Shown piece by piece: positions 30,915 to 42,331 of a stretch of 64,000 nucleotides of DNA (positions are counted from its first letter, which is position 1; every line of letters begins with the position of its first letter). A program made the translations under genes and the position numbers. Under the pieces are notes generated by a model that was given only the letters and a program-made list of their open reading frames with translations, was not told where the DNA came from and did no database searches. The stretch is from Saprospirales bacterium (GTDB lineage: Bacteria > Bacteroidota > Bacteroidia > Chitinophagales > Saprospiraceae): NCBI GenBank assembly GCA_031425155.1, contig JANPIV010000044.1, positions 7,413-71,412 of the forward strand. The letters are read 5' to 3'.

Positions 30915-31346
30915 TCAGCGAGCCAAAAAAGACGATCCGTCTTTCACCTCTGCCGCCAGCAGGCCCAGGGTTTTCATGGTCAATGTCTGCAGCATTTCAT
31001 CGCGATAGACCACAAAATCGTGGTGTAAGGGACAAGGATGGAGGTTGTTGCAGAGCTTACTACCCAATACACACTCGTTAAAAATTGAATTCCCGTCCGT
31101 AATTTTCAGAATGTCCAGCAGCGGCGTTTCTGAGGTCCGGTCATTGACAAAAAAACCACCGCTCGGCCCTTTAGTGGAATCCAGAATACCCTGACGCACC
31201 AGGTCTTGCATGATTTTGCCCAAAAAATGACGTGGAATATCCAGGCTTTGCGAGATATCCTGCAAGCCTGTTTTTTTGCCGCTTTTCCCTTGCATAACTA
31301 CGAATACAGCGGCGCGAAGCGCATACCCAAATGTCTTAGAAAACAT
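30915..31346 (-). CDS. Rrf2-family transcriptional regulator with probable Fe-S ligands (NsrR/IscR-like)
   Basis: 143 aa. Rrf2 N-terminal wHTH. CVLGSKLCNNLHPCPLH cysteine/histidine cluster. Confidence 0.85.
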   Translation of the reverse strand: MFSKTFGYALRAAVFVVMQGKSGKKTGLQDISQSLDIPRHFLGKIMQDLVRQGILDSTKGPSGGFFVNDRTSETPLLDILKITDGNSIFNECVLGSKLCNNLHPCPLHHDFVVYRDEMLQTLTMKTLGLLAAEVKDGSSFLAR

Positions 31347-31382
31347 GTCGTAAATATAATACCAAAAACCAATACTGCTGGA

Positions 31383-31447
31383 TGATTAAAATCATTCGTC
31401 AGCATGACGTAAATCACTTTTTAGGTCTCCTAAGGTAAATACTTTTG
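31383..31447 (+). promoter_or_regulatory. Dual CRP/FNR-type box promoter in the Rrf2 divergent region
   Basis: Box1 TGATTAAAATCA at 31383, box2 TGACGTAAATCA at 31405, -7 TACTTTTG at 31440. Confidence 0.5.
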
Positions 31448-31482
31448 CTATTAAAGATGTAAAACTCTTAAATATTTTCTTT

Positions 31483-31680
31483 ATGTCGCTTACTATTTAT
31501 TCATTTACCATTGCCATGAATTCTTTATCCACTGACTTACCAGTTTCGCAGTTTGAAGTCGAAACACCCGAACTGACCGTTAGTTTGAGCAATCACTTAG
31601 ATTTTCGTAGTGAAAAATTTTGCTGCCAAAGTATCTTACATGACATTATAGATTTAATAAAACCAAGTTATTATTGGTAA
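31483..31680 (+). pseudogene. Truncated paralogue of the cupin gene at 37272-37658
   Basis: TDLPVSQ..LSNHLDFRSEKF parallels TDLPIAQ..LADQLDFRPEKF of the cupin. The beta-barrel part is missing. Confidence 0.45.
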
Positions 31681-31740
31681 AACAAGTATAAAATGATATT
31701 GGCTATCCTGTTTTAATCCGCTATTATCAGGCCTTCAACC

Positions 31741-31778
31741 TGAGCGGCTAACCAGTAAAAGTGCTGGTTAGCCGCTCA
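31741..31778 (+). terminator. 15-bp stem hairpin
   Basis: TGAGCGGCTAACCAG / CTGGTTAGCCGCTCA followed by a T-rich tail. Confidence 0.5.
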
Positions 31779-31795
31779 TTATTATGTTTGCTATA

Positions 31796-31865
31796 GCACA
31801 CCTAAAACTCATCTACTTCTGGATAACCATTCGTATTTTTCAATTTAAATTTCCGGAACTGCCCT
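31796..31865 (-). pseudogene. Remnant of a paralogue of the 3' end of gene 40211-40996
   Basis: 64/70 nt identical to 40301-40370. Translates GQFRKFKLKNTNGYPEVDEF*VC versus GQLRKFKLKNTNGYPELDEFQVC. Confidence 0.8.
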
Positions 31866-39458: not shown

Positions 39459-40209
39459 GTACGTCCTTTACGACATTCTGCAAAACCAGATTGTCATTGG
39501 TTACACTTTATTCCTGCTGGCCGTCTCGTTTGGGTTGTTCAATATGAGCGGCGACCCCACCAAGGGACTGGTGAGCCTGCTGAACATTGTGCTGATCGTC
39601 ACGCCATTAGTCAGTATTATATTTGCCACCATTCATTTTTATAATGCCTCCGAGTTCATTGAATTGCTGGCGGCACAGCCTATTCGACGCAGCGTTATTA
39701 TTTGGAGTGAATTTTTGGGTTTGGCAGTAGCCATGAAACTGGCAGTGCTGGTGGGCATTGGTATTCCGGTGGCACTCTATGCTCCCAACGCAACGGGGTT
39801 GACGCTTTTGATCGCAGCAATAGGCCTTTCAGTGGCATTTGTGGCCATCGCTTTGCTGGCGGCGGTAATCACCCGCGACAAGGCAAAAGGCATTGGCGTG
39901 GCATTGCTCCTTTGGTTCTACTTCGCGCTACTGTACGATGCGCTGGTGTTGTTCCTGATGTTCAGTTTGGCCGATTATCCACTGGAAAAAGTAATGCTGG
40001 TTTTTATTTCCTTCAATCCGATTGATCTTGCGCGGGTGGTCGTACTGCTGCAAATGGATATTTCCGCGCTCATGGGTTACACCGGAGCCTTATTCCGGGA
40101 ATTTCTCGGTACAGGGTGGGGTATAGGTTTTGCGTTTGTGGTACTTCTATTCTGGATATTTATTCCCATCAGTATAGCCGTGCGGATGTTTCGACGCAAG
40201 GATTTATAA
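39442..40209 (+). CDS. nosY: ABC-2 type permease NosY
   Basis: 255 aa, 6 TM. Overlaps the nosF end. Confidence 0.85.
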   Translation: MLRIVKYVLYDILQNQIVIGYTLFLLAVSFGLFNMSGDPTKGLVSLLNIVLIVTPLVSIIFATIHFYNASEFIELLAAQPIRRSVIIWSEFLGLAVAMKLAVLVGIGIPVALYAPNATGLTLLIAAIGLSVAFVAIALLAAVITRDKAKGIGVALLLWFYFALLYDALVLFLMFSLADYPLEKVMLVFISFNPIDLARVVVLLQMDISALMGYTGALFREFLGTGWGIGFAFVVLLFWIFIPISIAVRMFRRKDL

Positions 40210-40210
40210 A

Positions 40211-40996
40211 CTAGCGCTCTCTCTTTTCAATTACCATTATTTTACCCGGCTCCACACCCCATTTATTGGGCATACACTGGTGAAAAACCGCCGTAGTATT
40301 GCACACCTGGAATTCATCTAGTTCTGGATAACCATTCGTATTTTTTAATTTAAATTTCCGTAACTGCCCTTCAAAGTTCCACTCGCTCAGCGTGACGCAA
40401 TCGGTGAATTCGTCGCGGAGTAAAGTAGTTTCCCTGCCGCCATATACCAGAAAATACTGGCCAATATGCACCAGAGTGCCGCCCCTGACGGCCAGCCGGT
40501 CATCGTCGGTTAAGGTGAATAGCGACAAATAATCTTTATTTTGCACTACACTATCTATCAGAGTCTTAATTGGGAACACAGTCAGGAACGGGAAAGTGAT
40601 TTCATAACCGCTGGCCAGATCGTAGCCATAACCACCCATTATATAGGCCGTATCATTATCTATCGTATAGCTATATTGATAGCCCGAAAACTGGTCGGCC
40701 ACGAAAGGCGGGAAATAACTCAGCGGCAATGCGTATGTCTTCCGGGCTTGTTCATCCACGATCAGCATATCGCAGTTATAAACGCCTACCGAATCGGGTG
40801 CCTGCGCATCCATAAACCTGCCACCAACCACTACTTTGAAATGCCCGGAATGAAAAGTAGCCGTGCCAGTCATCGCGGGCAGCGTAGCACCGGGAAATTC
40901 ATAGATCGCCTTGGAGTCGGAAAAGCAGACAAACTGACTCTTTACCAAGTGGATCTGCATAATAGAAAAAAATAATAGTAGGGTGGTGGTGCGCAT
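40211..40996 (-). CDS. Secreted hypothetical protein, possibly beta-propeller/kelch-like
   Basis: Signal peptide from MRTTTLLLFF (ATG 40994-40996). GG-containing repeats. Function unknown. Confidence 0.6.
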   Translation of the reverse strand: MRTTTLLLFFSIMQIHLVKSQFVCFSDSKAIYEFPGATLPAMTGTATFHSGHFKVVVGGRFMDAQAPDSVGVYNCDMLIVDEQARKTYALPLSYFPPFVADQFSGYQYSYTIDNDTAYIMGGYGYDLASGYEITFPFLTVFPIKTLIDSVVQNKDYLSLFTLTDDDRLAVRGGTLVHIGQYFLVYGGRETTLLRDEFTDCVTLSEWNFEGQLRKFKLKNTNGYPELDEFQVCNTTAVFHQCMPNKWGVEPGKIMVIEKRER

Positions 40997-41095
40997 GTCT
41001 TTTTCTTTTCTGCAAAAGTGGGGGGTGGACAAAGGGCCAACAATGATGGTCATCACGGTATAGAGCAATATTGGTCAGTTACCCAAACACTAGAT

Positions 41096-41160
41096 TCACC
41101 AAAGTCATCTCTCGATATGATGCAGGTCATTTTCTACAGTTTTTGGCTTAGGCACCTTTG
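41096..41160 (+). promoter_or_regulatory. Orphan dual-box promoter, paralogous to the nos promoter
   Basis: Box1 TCACCAAAGTCA at 41096, box2 TGATGCAGGTCA at 41118, -7 CACCTTTG at 41153. Aligns with 31884-31931. Confidence 0.5.
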
Positions 41161-41164
41161 TGGT

Positions 41165-41292
41165 ACAAATGATTGCTTTACTAAAAAAAGCAACATAAGA
41201 AAAGGCTGCCATCCAGATTCTGGTGAAGTAGCCGGATAGGTAGGAATGGTTTTGCACTGGCAGGTTTCCCGCAACGGGCGACCTGCTTTTTT
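41165..41292 (+). ncRNA. Candidate ~125-nt orphan transcript or small RNA
   Basis: Bounded by the orphan promoter and a + strand intrinsic terminator. No credible ORF. Convergent with the regulator gene. Confidence 0.3.
41260..41292 (+). terminator. Rho-independent terminator (T-run on the + strand only)
   Basis: GCAGGT..CCCG/CGGG..ACCTGC stem followed by T6. Confidence 0.6.
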
Positions 41293-42331
41293 AATTGGGC
41301 AACATCCGTAGTTTTTCCACTTTCAAGACGGTTACTACCCCGTCTTTAATTTCCAGCATATTTTCGTTTTTAAAGTCGGTGAGGGTGCGGATGAGCGTCT
41401 CTTTGGCCGTGCCCGCCAATGCCGCCAGGTCCTCACGGAGCAGGTGGATGACCGGCCCATTCTGATCGCACAGGTGCGTGAGTGCCGTAGCGACCCGTTT
41501 GCGCACGGAATTGTAGGCCAGTTCGATGAGCTGCTGTTCGCGCTCGGCAATGTGGCTGGCGAGCATCTTGATAAAACGGGCATTCACATCGCGATTACCA
41601 AACACCAGGGCGGCGAAGTCCTGCTTTGGCACCAGTTTGATGCTGCAATCTTCGAGAGCCGCCGCGCTTTCGGCGTAGGAGTCTTCTTTGAAAAGAGCCA
41701 GAAAGCCCAGAAAATCACCCATTTGGGCCACTTTCACGATCAGTTCCCGTCCGTCATCGCTGGTCTTGAAGATTTTGACCTTACCCCTTTCTACAAAATA
41801 CAGCCAGCGAGGATGCTCGCCTTCCCGGAAAATCAGGTCTTTTTTCTTATAATGCCGCAGCTCCCGATTCTCCGACAGGTGTTTGATGGCTTCCAGGGCC
41901 CGGGCTTCATCTATAAAGCGTTCGAGCGAGCCACCTGATTGCGCCGAGGCGGCCCGCAGCCGTTCGCTTTTTTTCAGGCGGCTTTCGATGGTTTGCAGCA
42001 AGGCCACATCATCGAAGGGTTTGGTCACGTAGTCGTCGGCCCCAAGTGACATACCCCGGCGGAAGTCTTCCTTTTCGGCTTTGGCAGTAAGAAAAATAAA
42101 AGGAATGTCCGCAGTCTTGACCTGTCGGCTGAGGATGTGCAGCACCCCGTAGCCGTCCAGTTCGGGCATCATGATGTCGCACAAGATCAGGTCGGGTAGC
42201 TCGGCCTGGGCTTTGGCAGCCCCCATTTTGCCATTTTCGGCGGTGAGGGCCTCATAACCGCTAAGGGTCAGAATTTCAGCGAGATTCTCGCGAACGTCCA
42301 AATTGTCTTCGATGACGAGAATTTTCTTCAT
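41291..42331 (-). CDS. Hybrid response regulator: receiver domain fused to a Crp/Fnr-type cNMP-binding domain and HTH
   Basis: ATG 42329-42331 (MKKILVIEDN). REC with acceptor Asp in LILCDIMMP. cNMP-binding fold and a C-terminal HTH_Crp. No FNR Cys cluster. Confidence 0.85.
   Translation of the reverse strand: MKKILVIEDNLDVRENLAEILTLSGYEALTAENGKMGAAKAQAELPDLILCDIMMPELDGYGVLHILSRQVKTADIPFIFLTAKAEKEDFRRGMSLGADDYVTKPFDDVALLQTIESRLKKSERLRAASAQSGGSLERFIDEARALEAIKHLSENRELRHYKKKDLIFREGEHPRWLYFVERGKVKIFKTSDDGRELIVKVAQMGDFLGFLALFKEDSYAESAAALEDCSIKLVPKQDFAALVFGNRDVNARFIKMLASHIAEREQQLIELAYNSVRKRVATALTHLCDQNGPVIHLLREDLAALAGTAKETLIRTLTDFKNENMLEIKDGVVTVLKVEKLRMLPN

What the first reader, a model, noticed from the sequence alone, without database searches (positions are those of the whole stretch)
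30915..42331. Complete Sec-type (clade II) nos locus with a non-canonical accessory set and two flanking regulators
NosZ has a lipoprotein/Sec signal with no twin-arginine motif, and the CuA motif CTDFCSALHQEM. The locus holds nosL, nosD, nosF and nosY. It lacks nosR, nosX and any NosG/H-type Fe-S or quinol dehydrogenase module. The only obvious electron carrier is the 155-aa lipoprotein cytochrome c at the head of the operon. Extra genes of unknown role are embedded: a membrane domain fused to NosL, cupin, group III truncated globin and fasciclin between nosD and nosF, and a convergent secreted 261-aa protein. The locus is framed by an Fe-S-type Rrf2 regulator (30915-31346) and a REC-Crp/Fnr hybrid (41291-42331). 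Whether this exact composition has been characterised I cannot tell from sequence alone. The electron-input route and the function of the embedded genes look open.
Basis: partly seen in the sequence, partly recalled or inferred. Interest (0 to 1): 0.7.

Follow-up and report, generated by a model that had tools for sequence, protein, structure and literature searches.

The report
Bacteroidota nitrous-oxide reductase operon with extras
This is an intact N2O-reductase gene cluster of the usual Bacteroidota type, and its main lead is a fasciclin lipoprotein gene that sits in 59 of 69 complete related clusters yet has never been studied.

Summary
The "non-canonical" reading is only partly right.

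**Ordinary for Bacteroidota**
- The locus has no nosR, nosX, nosG or nosH.

**Fasciclin**
- It lies in or beside 59 of 69 complete relative clusters, in five different slots.
- It is the second most conserved protein after NosZ.
- Where it is its own transcription unit it often carries its own Crp/Fnr-like box.
- One 2018 figure legend probably lists it under another name. No function is known.

**Cupin and group III globin**
- They are an optional, decaying insertion, and this exact arrangement is unique in the data.
- Globins recur at 19 of 69 clusters.

**The 261-aa protein**
- It is a Kelch-like neighbour that relatives keep without nos genes.

**Regulators**
- The Rrf2 gene keeps three Cys and one His.
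- It co-occurs with an 18-bp palindrome over the nos promoter (Fisher p = 3e-9).
- TGAT-N4-ATCA boxes link the operon, Rrf2, the 261-aa gene and the REC-Crp gene.

Verdict: a new variant of a known kind, with moderate interest.

The parts
30915..31346 (-). Rrf2-family regulator, divergent from the operon. It has C92, C99, C105 and H108 as a putative Fe-S ligand set.
   Evidence: PF02082 72.6 bits and TIGR00738 74.8 against a cut-off of 73.3. The Cys/His set is conserved in 30-32 of 33 aligned sequences. A divergent Rrf2 gene is present in 29 of 69 complete relative loci.
31383..31394 (.). TGATTAAAATCA, a Crp/Fnr-like box 37-48 bp upstream of the Rrf2 start codon.
   Evidence: 6 such boxes in the window against 0.88 expected, and 0 of 100 shuffles reach 6.
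31453..31470 (.). Degenerate copy of the Rrf2-linked palindrome (AAAGATGTAAAACTCTTA).
   Evidence: one of only two matches in the 64 kb.
31483..31680 (+). 65-aa ORF that looks like an N-terminal fragment of a cupin paralogue.
   Evidence: BLASTP against the operon cupin gives 33% identity over 40 aa, pairwise E 1e-7.
31741..31778 (+). 17-bp-stem hairpin followed by a T-rich tail, terminator-like, after the cupin fragment.
   Evidence: It has a weak sub-threshold Rfam ctRNA hit.
31865..31876 (.). TGATGCAAATCA, a Crp/Fnr-like box upstream of cyt c.
   Evidence: The same box type lies within 200 bp upstream of 38 of 97 cyt c ORFs in relatives, against a background of 0.136 per kb.
32034..32041 (+). 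TAGTTTTG, which matches the Bacteroidota -7 promoter element TAnnTTTG. Promoter function is inferred.
   Evidence: Read from the sequence. The consensus comes from my own knowledge.
32049..32066 (.). Perfect 18-bp palindrome AAAGAGTTTAAACTCTTT, 35 bp upstream of the cyt c ATG. Predicted operator of the Rrf2 regulator.
   Evidence: The motif co-occurs with the Rrf2 gene: 23 of 27 promoters with the motif have it, against 5 of 40 without (Fisher p 3e-9). 19 of 22 perfect copies in 1.35 Mb lie at cyt c promoters.
32101..32568 (+). Monohaem lipoprotein cytochrome c, first gene of the operon and presumed electron donor to CuA.
   Evidence: PF00034; CSACH; signal peptide plus Cys. Present upstream of nosZ in 77 of 80 loci.
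32644..34644 (+). NosZ, a clade II Sec-dependent lipoprotein N2O reductase.
   Evidence: TIGR04246 913 bits. In relatives, 0 of 79 have an RR motif and 64 of 79 have a signal peptide plus Cys.
34736..35770 (+). NosB-NosL fusion: polytopic NosB at about residues 1-220, then an internal lipobox-like LALCSSC, then the NosL Cu-chaperone domain.
   Evidence: Pfam NosL 39 bits against a cut-off of 24. The NosB motifs LNHYIGM and YGHN are present (the motifs are from PMC9697520). About half of the relatives encode the two parts as separate ORFs.
35808..35948 (.). Inverted-repeat element (two 40-nt arms, 95% complementary) in the nosBL-nosD spacer.
   Evidence: RNA fold -118 kcal/mol, z -10.6. No other copy in the window or in 109 loci.
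36011..37282 (+). NosD, a periplasmic beta-helix maturation protein.
   Evidence: TIGR04247 420 bits against 300.
37272..37658 (+). Small cytoplasmic cupin. Its true start is probably 37305-37311. Optional accessory gene.
   Evidence: Cupin_2 34.3 bits. Only 33 close homologues were found. Solved relatives are all uncharacterised. Present in 6 of 69 complete loci.
37671..38066 (+). Group III truncated haemoglobin, cytoplasmic. Optional accessory gene.
   Evidence: Present in 19 of 69 complete loci. The closest relatives are not nos-linked. It is a singleton at 90% clustering.
38101..38664 (+). FAS1 (fasciclin) lipoprotein with a conserved GQSAVxDDxSxKDVVKVA stretch before the domain. Conserved candidate nos accessory protein.
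   Evidence: PF02469 114 bits. Present in 59 of 69 complete loci, in five slots. Median identity 67%. Signal peptide plus Cys in essentially all copies. All six reverse look-up places lie inside nos operons.
38685..39458 (+). NosF ABC ATPase. Probable start 38739.
   Evidence: PF00005; synteny.
39442..40209 (+). NosY ABC-2 permease.
   Evidence: PF12679; synteny.
40211..40996 (-). Secreted Kelch-like beta-propeller specific to Saprospiraceae-type genomes. A neighbour, not a nos gene.
   Evidence: AF2 pLDDT 85.5. Foldseek matches Kelch domains at TM 0.3-0.45.
41044..41055 (.). TGATGGTCATCA box 48-59 bp upstream of the 261-aa gene.
41291..42331 (-). REC - cNMP-binding - HTH_Crp hybrid regulator.
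   Evidence: Full-length orthologues lie within 10 kb of nosZ in 19 of 69 complete loci.
42370..42381 (.). TGATTTCTATCA box in the divergent REC-Crp / CBS promoter region.
42466..44144 (+). CBS-pair protein and thioredoxin-like + Usp protein, a module that travels with the REC-Crp gene.
   Evidence: The order is the same in L082, which shows no nosZ. The module is adjacent to cyt c-nosZ in L079.

Best explanation
**What it is.** This is a functional Bacteroidota-type clade II N2O-reductase operon from a Saprospiraceae/Lewinellaceae-like bacterium. The gene order is cyt c - nosZ - nosB::nosL - nosD - cupin - trHb - FAS1 - nosF - nosY.

**How the core works (inferred from established knowledge of the families).**
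- NosZ is exported unfolded by Sec and becomes a lipoprotein.
- Its Cu centres are built in the periplasm by the NosL domain, NosD and the NosFY ABC module.
- NosB is the clade II membrane protein.
- Electrons come from a quinol:cytochrome c oxidoreductase encoded elsewhere, through the lipoprotein cytochrome c, to CuA.

**FAS1 lipoprotein (linkage shown, mechanism inferred).** It is a conserved, co-regulated periplasmic partner of this system. Most likely it is a structural or docking subunit, in the way the FAS1 protein CupS is a subunit of cyanobacterial NDH-1MS.

**Cupin and group III globin (inferred).** They are a cytoplasmic, optional NO/O2-handling add-on that has been gained and lost repeatedly.

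**Regulation (sequence statistics shown, mechanism inferred).**
- The divergent Fe-S-type Rrf2 protein represses the operon. It binds an 18-bp palindrome that starts 8 bp after the putative -7 box.
- A Crp/Fnr-type factor acts at TGAT-N4-ATCA boxes. The neighbouring REC-Crp hybrid is a plausible candidate.
- Those boxes also precede the Rrf2 gene, the 261-aa gene and the REC-Crp gene itself.
For: **Family assignments.** All are above curated cut-offs.

**Core order.** 69 of 80 relative loci carry the same core.

**NosB identity.**
- The published LNHYIGM and YGHN motifs are present.
- Relatives split the gene into separate NosB and NosL ORFs.

**FAS1 linkage.**
- It is in 59 of 69 complete loci: 47 inside the operon and 11 within 2 kb.
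- It occupies five slots: nosZ-x-nosB, nosD-x-nosF, cytc-x-nosZ, after nosY, and divergent upstream.
- Its median identity to the window copy is 67%, against 39-57% for NosB, L, D, F, Y and cyt c.
- A lipoprotein signal is conserved.
- A TGAT-N4-ATCA box precedes it in 7 of 67 loci, the six listed being ones where it is its own unit. Background is 0.136 per kb.
- Reverse look-ups all fall inside nos operons.
- CupS is a sequence relative (E 7e-25).

**Rrf2.**
- The palindrome co-occurs with the gene (p 3e-9).
- 19 of 22 perfect copies in 1.35 Mb lie at cyt c promoters.
- Only two copies exist in the window, both in this intergenic region.
- The Cys3-His set is conserved.

**Boxes.** Six in the window against 0.88 expected, and four of them are in this locus's promoter regions.

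**Globin.**
- Haem-pocket residues are kept.
- 19 of 69 loci have one, usually right after nosY.
- Other NO-stress genes recur nearby: RIC/ScdA-like in 26 loci, and a possibly NnrS-like membrane protein in 12 loci (names from my reading of the sequences).
Against: - There are no expression or activity data, and the source is an uncultured MAG.
- FAS1 function is unknown in any bacterium. 7 of 69 complete loci with enough flank lack the gene within 10 kb.
- The fasciclin structure model failed (pLDDT 49).
- The globin and cupin are cytoplasmic while NosZ is periplasmic.
- The window's globin groups with globins that are not nos-linked, and near relatives have lost it.
- Presence of the TGAT-N4-ATCA box does not correlate with a REC-Crp gene within 10 kb (p 0.33). 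The factor that binds the boxes is therefore unidentified.
- The Rrf2 protein fails the NsrR and IscR equivalog cut-offs.
- The quinol-oxidising complex is not in the window.
Confidence: 0.7

Rival explanations
1. The fasciclin is co-regulated with the anaerobic response but has no role in N2O reduction. It could be an envelope or adhesion lipoprotein that happens to share the regulon.
For: - Bacterial FAS1 proteins studied so far have adhesion, linker or ligand-binding roles. Solved relatives include Fdp, MPT70, AstaP and LRC6.
- 7 complete loci with enough flank lack it nearby.
- It has no metal-binding or redox motif, and no Cys other than the lipobox Cys.
Against: - It sits inside the operon in 47 loci, in three different internal slots.
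- It is more conserved than the known maturation proteins.
- Every reverse look-up fell inside a nos operon.
Confidence: 0.22
2. The cupin and globin are a recent hitch-hiking insertion with no function in the nos system. The same reshuffling left a cupin fragment, a hairpin and an inverted-repeat element in this locus.
For: - The closest globins (50-58% identity) are free-standing in unrelated contexts.
- The globin is a singleton cluster.
- L094 has only a globin remnant.
- L110-L115 have nothing in the slot.
- The locus carries other insertion scars.
Against: - Group III globins lie at 19 of 69 nos clusters, in at least three separate clades.
- For a gene that I assume is single-copy in a genome of about 5 Mb, about 0.4% would be expected by chance.
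- Cupin-globin pairs recur after nosY in L020, L050, L063 and L075.
- Both ORFs are intact, and the globin's haem-pocket residues are kept.
Confidence: 0.35
3. The Rrf2 protein is a general Fe-S or iron homeostasis regulator of the IscR or RirA type, and the palindrome belongs to another factor.
For: The best NCBIfam equivalog hits are RirA and IscR, although both are far below cut-off. The best solved relatives are RsrR and IscR.
Against: - The gene is divergent from cyt c in 23 loci, within 500 bp.
- The palindrome tracks the gene's presence (p 3e-9).
- The palindrome is almost confined to nos promoters.
Confidence: 0.12
4. The cluster is a silent or non-functional remnant.
For: Close relatives L083-L085 keep only a cupin, fragments of nosF and nosY, and the 261-aa gene. 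The lineage therefore does lose nos.
Against: All nine core and embedded ORFs are intact and full length, and their scores are above family cut-offs.
Confidence: 0.05

Closest known systems
Bacteroidota-type clade II nos cluster, for example Flavobacterium azooxidireducens and Dyadobacter fermentans (PMC9697520)
   Same: - Sec-dependent NosZ.
- No nosR or nosX.
- nosL-nosD-nosF-nosY downstream.
- NosB fused to NosL, with the LNHYIGM and YGHN motifs.
   Different: That description lists no fasciclin, cupin or globin. Here three extra genes sit between nosD and nosF, and a cytochrome c gene heads the operon.
Wolinella succinogenes / Campylobacterota clade II nos cluster (NosB, NosG, NosH, NosC1, NosC2; Hein et al. 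2017 as cited in PMC9697520)
   Same: Clade II NosZ, and NosB present.
   Different: There is no NosGH polyferredoxin/quinol dehydrogenase module and no NosC1/C2. The window has a single lipoprotein monohaem cytochrome c. Some near relatives add a membrane-anchored CxxCH Haem_bd protein, which this window lacks.
Clade II nos scaffolds of Calderoli et al. 2018 (PMC6264515, Fig. 4 legend)
   Same: [quoted passage not shown] The last name is, from my own knowledge, an annotation-pipeline (RAST) name for CupS-like FAS1 proteins. The text notes enrichment of Rrf2 regulators and the presence of dnrN and nnrS.
   Different: The gene is only drawn. It is not discussed, counted or named as a fasciclin. 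No operator or regulon was proposed. I could not see the figure, so the identity of their gene 9 with this family is inferred.
CupS, the FAS1-fold subunit of cyanobacterial NDH-1MS (2mxa, 6tjv chain Q)
   Same: A single FAS1 domain of similar size, with clear sequence similarity (E 7e-25). It is a small accessory subunit of a membrane bioenergetic complex that handles a linear triatomic gas.
   Different: CupS is cytoplasmic and soluble. This protein is a Sec/SPII lipoprotein in the periplasm, with a low-complexity tether and a conserved pre-domain motif. No NDH-1 genes are nearby.
Campylobacter jejuni Ctb (group III truncated haemoglobin, 2ig3)
   Same: The best solved relative (E 1e-11). The Tyr, two His and Trp of the haem pocket align.
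   Different: Ctb is a stand-alone gene under the NO-responsive Crp/Fnr-family regulator NssR (my own knowledge). Here the globin sits inside a nos operon next to a cupin.
NsrR / IscR / RsrR (Fe-S Rrf2 regulators)
   Same: A winged-helix Rrf2 fold with a C-x6-C-x5-C (+His) ligand pattern. The predicted operator is a palindrome over the promoter.
   Different: It scores far below the NsrR (27 of 182) and IscR (38 of 208) equivalog cut-offs. It appears dedicated to one promoter.

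Membership tests
Clade II (Sec-type) NosZ | Matches the Sec-dependent NosZ model above its curated cut-off, and not the TAT-type model. | tested here: met
   TIGR04246 913 bits against 625. TIGR04244 367 against 625.
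Clade II (Sec-type) NosZ | Signal peptide without a twin-arginine motif. | tested here: met
   MKYRSLLLLIVAAIALPTLLLHSGC. 0 of 79 relatives have RRx[FILVM].
Clade II (Sec-type) NosZ | CuA ligand motif C-x2-F-C-x3-H-x-E-M. | tested here: met
   CTDFCSALHQEM is in the translation.
Clade II nos cluster | nosB next to nosZ; nosR and nosX absent. | tested here: met
   The NosB part of the 34736-35770 product. No NosR/NosX-like ORF in the 64 kb.
Clade II nos cluster | N2O reduction by the organism. | not testable with these tools
   Uncultured MAG source.
NosB | Polytopic membrane protein with the conserved LNHYIGM and YGHN stretches. | tested here: met
   Both stretches are in the N-terminal half. 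The motifs are those quoted in PMC9697520. Separate NosB ORFs in relatives are 43-90% identical.
NosL | Pfam NosL domain above the gathering score. | tested here: met
   39 bits against 24, residues 228-342.
NosD | NosD subfamily model above its cut-off. | tested here: met
   TIGR04247 420 against 300.
NosFY | ABC ATPase plus ABC-2 permease directly following nosD in nos clusters. | tested here: met
   PF00005 and PF12679. The position is conserved in 69 loci. No NosF- or NosY-specific model exists in the libraries searched.
Group III truncated haemoglobin | Closest to Ctb, with the Tyr, two His and Trp of the haem pocket kept. | tested here: met
   2ig3 at E 1e-11, against E 0.007 or weaker for group I globins. 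The residues align in FYKKV, WEKH, LAH and FDQW. The helix labels are from my own knowledge.
FAS1 / fasciclin domain | Pfam Fasciclin above the gathering score. | tested here: met
   114 bits against 22.
CupS (NDH-1MS subunit) | Encoded with, and bound to, the CupA/NdhD3/NdhF3 CO2-uptake complex in the cytoplasm. | tested here: not met
   No NDH-1 or cupA genes nearby. The protein has a lipoprotein signal. It is a fold and sequence relative only.
NsrR (NO-sensing Rrf2) | Equivalog model above its cut-off. | tested here: not met
   NF008240 27.4 against 182.
Fe-S-binding Rrf2 regulators (general) | Three conserved Cys in the C-terminal half. | tested here: met
   C92, C99 and C105 in 30-32 of 33 aligned sequences, and H108 in 30 of 33. 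Cluster binding itself was not tested.
FNR-type O2 sensors | N-terminal Cys cluster that holds a [4Fe-4S] centre. | tested here: not met
   The N-terminus is a receiver domain (PF00072, residues 21-132 of the long ORF), not a Cys cluster.
Crp/Fnr superfamily | cNMP-binding-like domain plus a C-terminal HTH_Crp_2 domain. | tested here: met
   PF00027 79 bits and PF13545 47 bits.

The most novel reading that the evidence does not exclude
The FAS1 lipoprotein is a required and so far unrecognised component of the N2O-reducing machinery in non-flavobacterial Bacteroidota. It would be a periplasmic docking or organising subunit that holds lipoprotein NosZ, its lipoprotein cytochrome c and NosB together at the membrane. 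It would thereby replace part of what NosR or NosGH do in other lineages.
Probability: 0.3. Interest if true: 0.75.

Novelty: new variant of a known kind. Interest (0 to 1): 0.5.

Why it matters
Bacteroidota carry most clade II nosZ genes in activated sludge. They account for 70.6% of clade II MAGs in PMC11409646, and Saprospiraceae alone account for 88 MAGs. These organisms are candidate N2O sinks.

How their NosZ gets electrons and is kept active without NosR or NosGH is not known. Three leads follow from this work:

- **A testable accessory gene.** A gene found in 59 of 69 complete related clusters, more conserved than the known maturation factors, is a concrete candidate.
- **A handle on regulation.** The predicted Rrf2 operator and the Crp/Fnr-like boxes suggest when these populations switch N2O reduction on.
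- **Better genome screens.** They would be more accurate if 'cyt c + NosB(-L) + FAS1' were recognised as the Bacteroidota signature.

Tried and rejected
1. **Fasciclin structure.** The AF2 model, built from a shallow alignment of 73-90% identical sequences, gave pLDDT 49 and is unusable.
2. **Shared tether motif.** I looked for a 'QSAV..D' motif shared by NosZ and the fasciclin. Only 10 of 79 NosZ have QSAV, so I dropped it as coincidence.
3. **Rfam.** The scan of 29000-45000 found nothing near any gathering score.
4. **Sigma-70 promoter and terminator scan.** Counts were at chance level (13 against 10.9, and 18 against 15.5). It is not informative for Bacteroidota.
5. **REC-Crp and the boxes.** I tested whether TGAT-N4-ATCA boxes track a REC-Crp gene within 10 kb. 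They do not (p 0.33).
6. **Other recurrent neighbours.** RIC/ScdA, the 414-aa membrane protein, Haem_bd, SCO1 and OsmC were sought in the window. None was found.
7. **The 261-aa protein as a nos accessory.** I rejected this because its homologues lie beside Usp, OsmC and REC-Crp genes without nos genes.
8. **Motif enumeration.** The first brute-force version timed out and was replaced by a palindrome scan.
9. **Literature.** Full-text searches for fasciclin or FAS1 with nosZ or nitrous oxide found nothing relevant. The one likely prior mention uses another name.

Full report
**1. What is in the sequence**

Family searches confirm each call.

- NosZ matches the Sec-dependent model TIGR04246 at 913 bits (cut-off 625). 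It fails the TAT-type model at 367 bits.
- Its N-terminus, MKYRSLLLLIVAAIALPTLLLHSGC, has no twin arginine and ends in a lipobox Cys. CTDFCSALHQEM is present.
- NosD scores 420 bits against the TIGR04247 cut-off of 300.
- The other assignments are NosL (PF05573), Cupin_2, Bac_globin, Fasciclin (114 bits), ABC_tran, ABC2_membrane_2, Rrf2, and Response_reg + cNMP_binding + HTH_Crp_2. All are above Pfam gathering scores.
- The globin is closest to the group III truncated haemoglobin Ctb (2ig3, E 1e-11). Group I globins reach only E 0.007 or weaker. The haem-pocket Tyr, two His and Trp align.

Nothing resembling NosR, NosX, NosG or NosH occurs in the 64 kb. The only polyferredoxin is CcoG, in a cbb3 oxidase cluster at 11134-16314.

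There are two small corrections.
- Cupin homologues are 108-117 aa, so the gene probably starts near 37305-37311.
- NosF homologues are 238-239 aa, so NosF probably starts at 38739.

**2. Source and comparison set**

NosZ was used to fetch 80 loci from one-genome-per-species contigs. All are Bacteroidota-type MAGs or genomes. The closest are Saprospiraceae and Lewinellaceae at 88-92% NosZ identity. The window's own proteins are on a 71.7-kb NCBI contig.

I translated all six frames of the loci and built iterated HMMs from the window's proteins. I also clustered all unassigned ORFs around the clusters de novo.

**3. The core is the ordinary Bacteroidota arrangement**

- 69 of 80 loci carry cyt c-nosZ-nosB-nosL-nosD-nosF-nosY in that order. 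Most of the others are truncated contigs.
- The 'membrane domain fused to NosL' is NosB.
  - It holds the LNHYIGM and YGHN stretches that PMC9697520 quotes as NosB signatures.
  - About half of the relatives encode it as a separate ORF.
  - The NosB-NosL fusion is already described for Dyadobacter and Flavobacterium.
- NosZ, the cytochrome c and the fasciclin all have a signal peptide followed by Cys in most relatives, and none has an RR motif. The system therefore appears to be built from membrane-tethered lipoproteins.

**4. The fasciclin is the real lead**

- It is present in 59 of the 69 complete loci: 47 inside the operon and 11 within 2 kb. Three of the ten loci without it end right at nosY.
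- Its position changes between lineages, but the linkage stays.

| Slot | Loci | Where seen |
|---|---|---|
| nosZ-FAS1-nosB | 32 | Chitinophagaceae-type |
| nosD-FAS1-nosF | about 10 | this window and other Saprospiraceae |
| cyt c-FAS1-nosZ | 7 | Cytophagales-type |
| after nosY, or divergent upstream | remainder | various |

- Among the distant loci (L011-L080, median NosZ identity 77%) it is the second most conserved protein: 67% median identity. NosF, cyt c, NosB, NosY, NosD and NosL range from 57% down to 39%.
- All copies are lipoproteins with a low-complexity tether. A conserved stretch, GQSAVxDDxSxKDVVKVA, sits just before the FAS1 domain.
- A TGAT-N4-ATCA box precedes the gene in 7 of 67 loci, and the six listed are ones where it is its own transcription unit. 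The background is 0.136 per kb.
- Reverse look-ups of three close homologues gave six places, all between nosD and nosF.
- Solved sequence relatives include CupS, a subunit of cyanobacterial NDH-1MS, and a phycobilisome linker. FAS1 domains can therefore be small structural subunits of bioenergetic complexes.

The structure model for the window's protein failed.

Prior art is thin.
- Full-text searches for fasciclin or FAS1 with nosZ found nothing relevant.
- The Fig. [quoted passage not shown] From my own knowledge, that is an annotation-pipeline (RAST) name for CupS-like FAS1 proteins.
- I infer it is the same gene. It was drawn there but not discussed.

**5. Cupin and globin are optional and unstable**

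- Group III globins occur at 19 of 69 complete clusters, usually right after nosY. The cupin occurs at 6 of 69.
- Cupin-globin pairs recur in L020, L050, L063 and L075.
- The window's globin groups with free-standing globins (50-58% identity) that have no nos genes within their flanks. It does not group with the other nos-linked globins (29-48% identity).
- It is a singleton at 90% clustering among about 15 billion proteins.
- The nosD-FAS1 slot differs even among near relatives.

| Content of the slot | Loci |
|---|---|
| empty | L001, L003-L006, L110-L115 |
| cupin + DUF7670 | L007, L081 |
| C-terminal globin remnant | L094 (NosZ 96%) |
| intact cupin + globin | this window |

- Both proteins lack signal peptides. 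Solved relatives of the cupin are all uncharacterised.

I read the pair as a facultative cytoplasmic add-on, most plausibly for handling NO or O2. Other NO-stress genes also recur beside these clusters. A RIC/ScdA-like protein is in 26 loci, and a polytopic membrane protein that may be NnrS-like is in 12. I named those families from reading the sequences, so the names are tentative.

**6. The 261-aa protein is a neighbour**

- It has 78 homologues, all unnamed. Those that carry an organism name come from Saprospiraceae-type MAGs.
- At 46-62% identity they sit beside Usp, OsmC, CBS and REC-Crp genes in contigs without nos genes.
- In L082-L085 the gene remains although the nos cluster is absent or reduced to fragments.
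- Its model (pLDDT 85.5) matches Kelch beta-propellers weakly, at TM 0.3-0.45.
- In the window it does carry a TGAT-N4-ATCA box 48-59 bp upstream. It may therefore share a regulator with nos.

**7. Regulation**

*The Rrf2 palindrome*
- A palindrome scan of 67 cyt c upstream regions found AAAGA-N8-TCTTT about 40-50 bp before the start codon.
- With one mismatch allowed it is in 27 regions.
- 23 of those 27 loci have the divergent Rrf2 gene, against 5 of the 40 without the motif (Fisher p 3e-9).
- Of 22 perfect copies in 1.35 Mb, 19 lie at cyt c promoters.
- The window has a perfect AAAGAGTTTAAACTCTTT at 32049-32066. That is 8 bp after a TAGTTTTG that fits the Bacteroidota -7 element, a consensus I know from memory.
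- A degenerate copy lies at 31453-31470. There are no others.
- The Rrf2 protein keeps C92, C99, C105 and H108 in 30-32 of 33 aligned sequences. It fails the NsrR and IscR equivalog cut-offs.
- I infer a dedicated Fe-S Rrf2 repressor of the nos promoter. Enrichment of Rrf2 genes beside clade II nosZ was already noted in PMC6264515.

*The Crp/Fnr-like boxes*
- TGAT-N4-ATCA occurs 6 times in the window against 0.88 expected.
- Four of the six lie upstream of Rrf2, cyt c, the 261-aa gene and the REC-Crp/CBS pair.
- In relatives the extended form ATGAT-N4-ATCAT (one mismatch allowed) is found in 36 of 67 cyt c upstream regions, mostly 60-165 bp before the start. It is more frequent where Rrf2 is absent (p 0.003).
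- Full-length REC-Crp orthologues (45-51% identity) lie within 10 kb in 19 complete loci.
- Box presence does not track them (p 0.33). The binding factor is therefore not established.

**8. Other features of this locus**

- The Rrf2-cyt c spacer is 754 bp. In near relatives the two genes are about 100-330 bp apart.
- The extra DNA holds a 65-aa cupin-like fragment and a 17-bp-stem hairpin.
- The nosBL-nosD spacer holds a unique inverted repeat with 40-nt arms.
- In L001, L004, L007, L081 and L113-L115 that spacer holds a membrane-anchored CxxCH Haem_bd gene instead.

This window is therefore a rearranged, slightly reduced version of the Saprospiraceae nos locus.

**9. Verdict**

The locus is a known kind, with one unusual insertion and one under-appreciated conserved gene.

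Three things were not shown here: expression, N2O reduction, and any physical role for the FAS1 protein.

Noticed in passing
window 31483-31778: A 65-aa ORF resembling the N-terminus of the operon's cupin is followed by a strong hairpin (17-bp stem, T-rich tail). This extra DNA makes the Rrf2-cyt c spacer 754 bp, against about 100-330 bp in near relatives. It looks like the scar of a duplication or insertion.
   Followed up: partly
window 35808-35948: An inverted repeat with 40-nt arms (95% complementary, 61 nt apart) lies inside the operon, between nosBL and nosD. As RNA it folds at -118 kcal/mol (z -10.6). There is no other copy in the window or in 109 loci. Relatives carry a haem-binding gene at this position.
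   Followed up: partly
L081 8145-8642; also L001, L004, L007, L113-L115: Several Saprospiraceae relatives encode a membrane-anchored protein with a CxxCH motif (Pfam Haem_bd, PF14376) between nosBL and nosD. It could be an extra electron carrier. The window lacks it.
   Followed up: partly
L083-L085 (for example L083 5830-7850): Some relatives have lost the nos cluster. What remains is a cupin, a 76-aa ABC ATPase fragment, a 122-aa NosY-like fragment and the 261-aa gene. This shows recent loss of nos in the lineage.
   Followed up: partly
window 11134-17499: A cbb3-type oxidase cluster (fused ccoNO, ccoP, ccoG and a DsbD_2 membrane protein) lies 15 kb upstream of the nos locus. The same proximity is seen in L081.
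   Followed up: partly
window 18001-20000: GC content drops to 0.37, against about 0.5 elsewhere. One of the six TGAT-N4-ATCA boxes (18331-18342) lies here, upstream of a DUF998 gene. The ORFs at 18740-20446 were not examined.
   Followed up: no
window 45101-50433: This is a run of same-strand genes. It includes an EAD11 (effector-associated domain) + TPR protein at 47356-48225, a DUF5648 protein, a DnaJ-type zinc-finger protein, and two proteins with no family. It may be a conflict or defence-type module. L112 has an EAD11-kinase right after nosY.
   Followed up: no
window 42466-44144; L082, L107, L079: A CBS-pair gene and a thioredoxin-like + Usp gene travel with the REC-Crp regulator in several genomes, with or without nos genes nearby. 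This suggests a conserved stress or hypoxia module.
   Followed up: partly
80 loci: Other recurrent neighbours of Bacteroidota nos clusters:
- a RIC/ScdA-like di-iron protein (26 loci);
- PAS histidine kinases (15 loci);
- a 414-aa polytopic membrane protein (12 loci);
- Cu P-type ATPases (9 loci);
- NorB-like proteins (5 loci);
- SCO1-like proteins (5 loci).

The family names come from reading the sequences, not from a library search.
   Followed up: no
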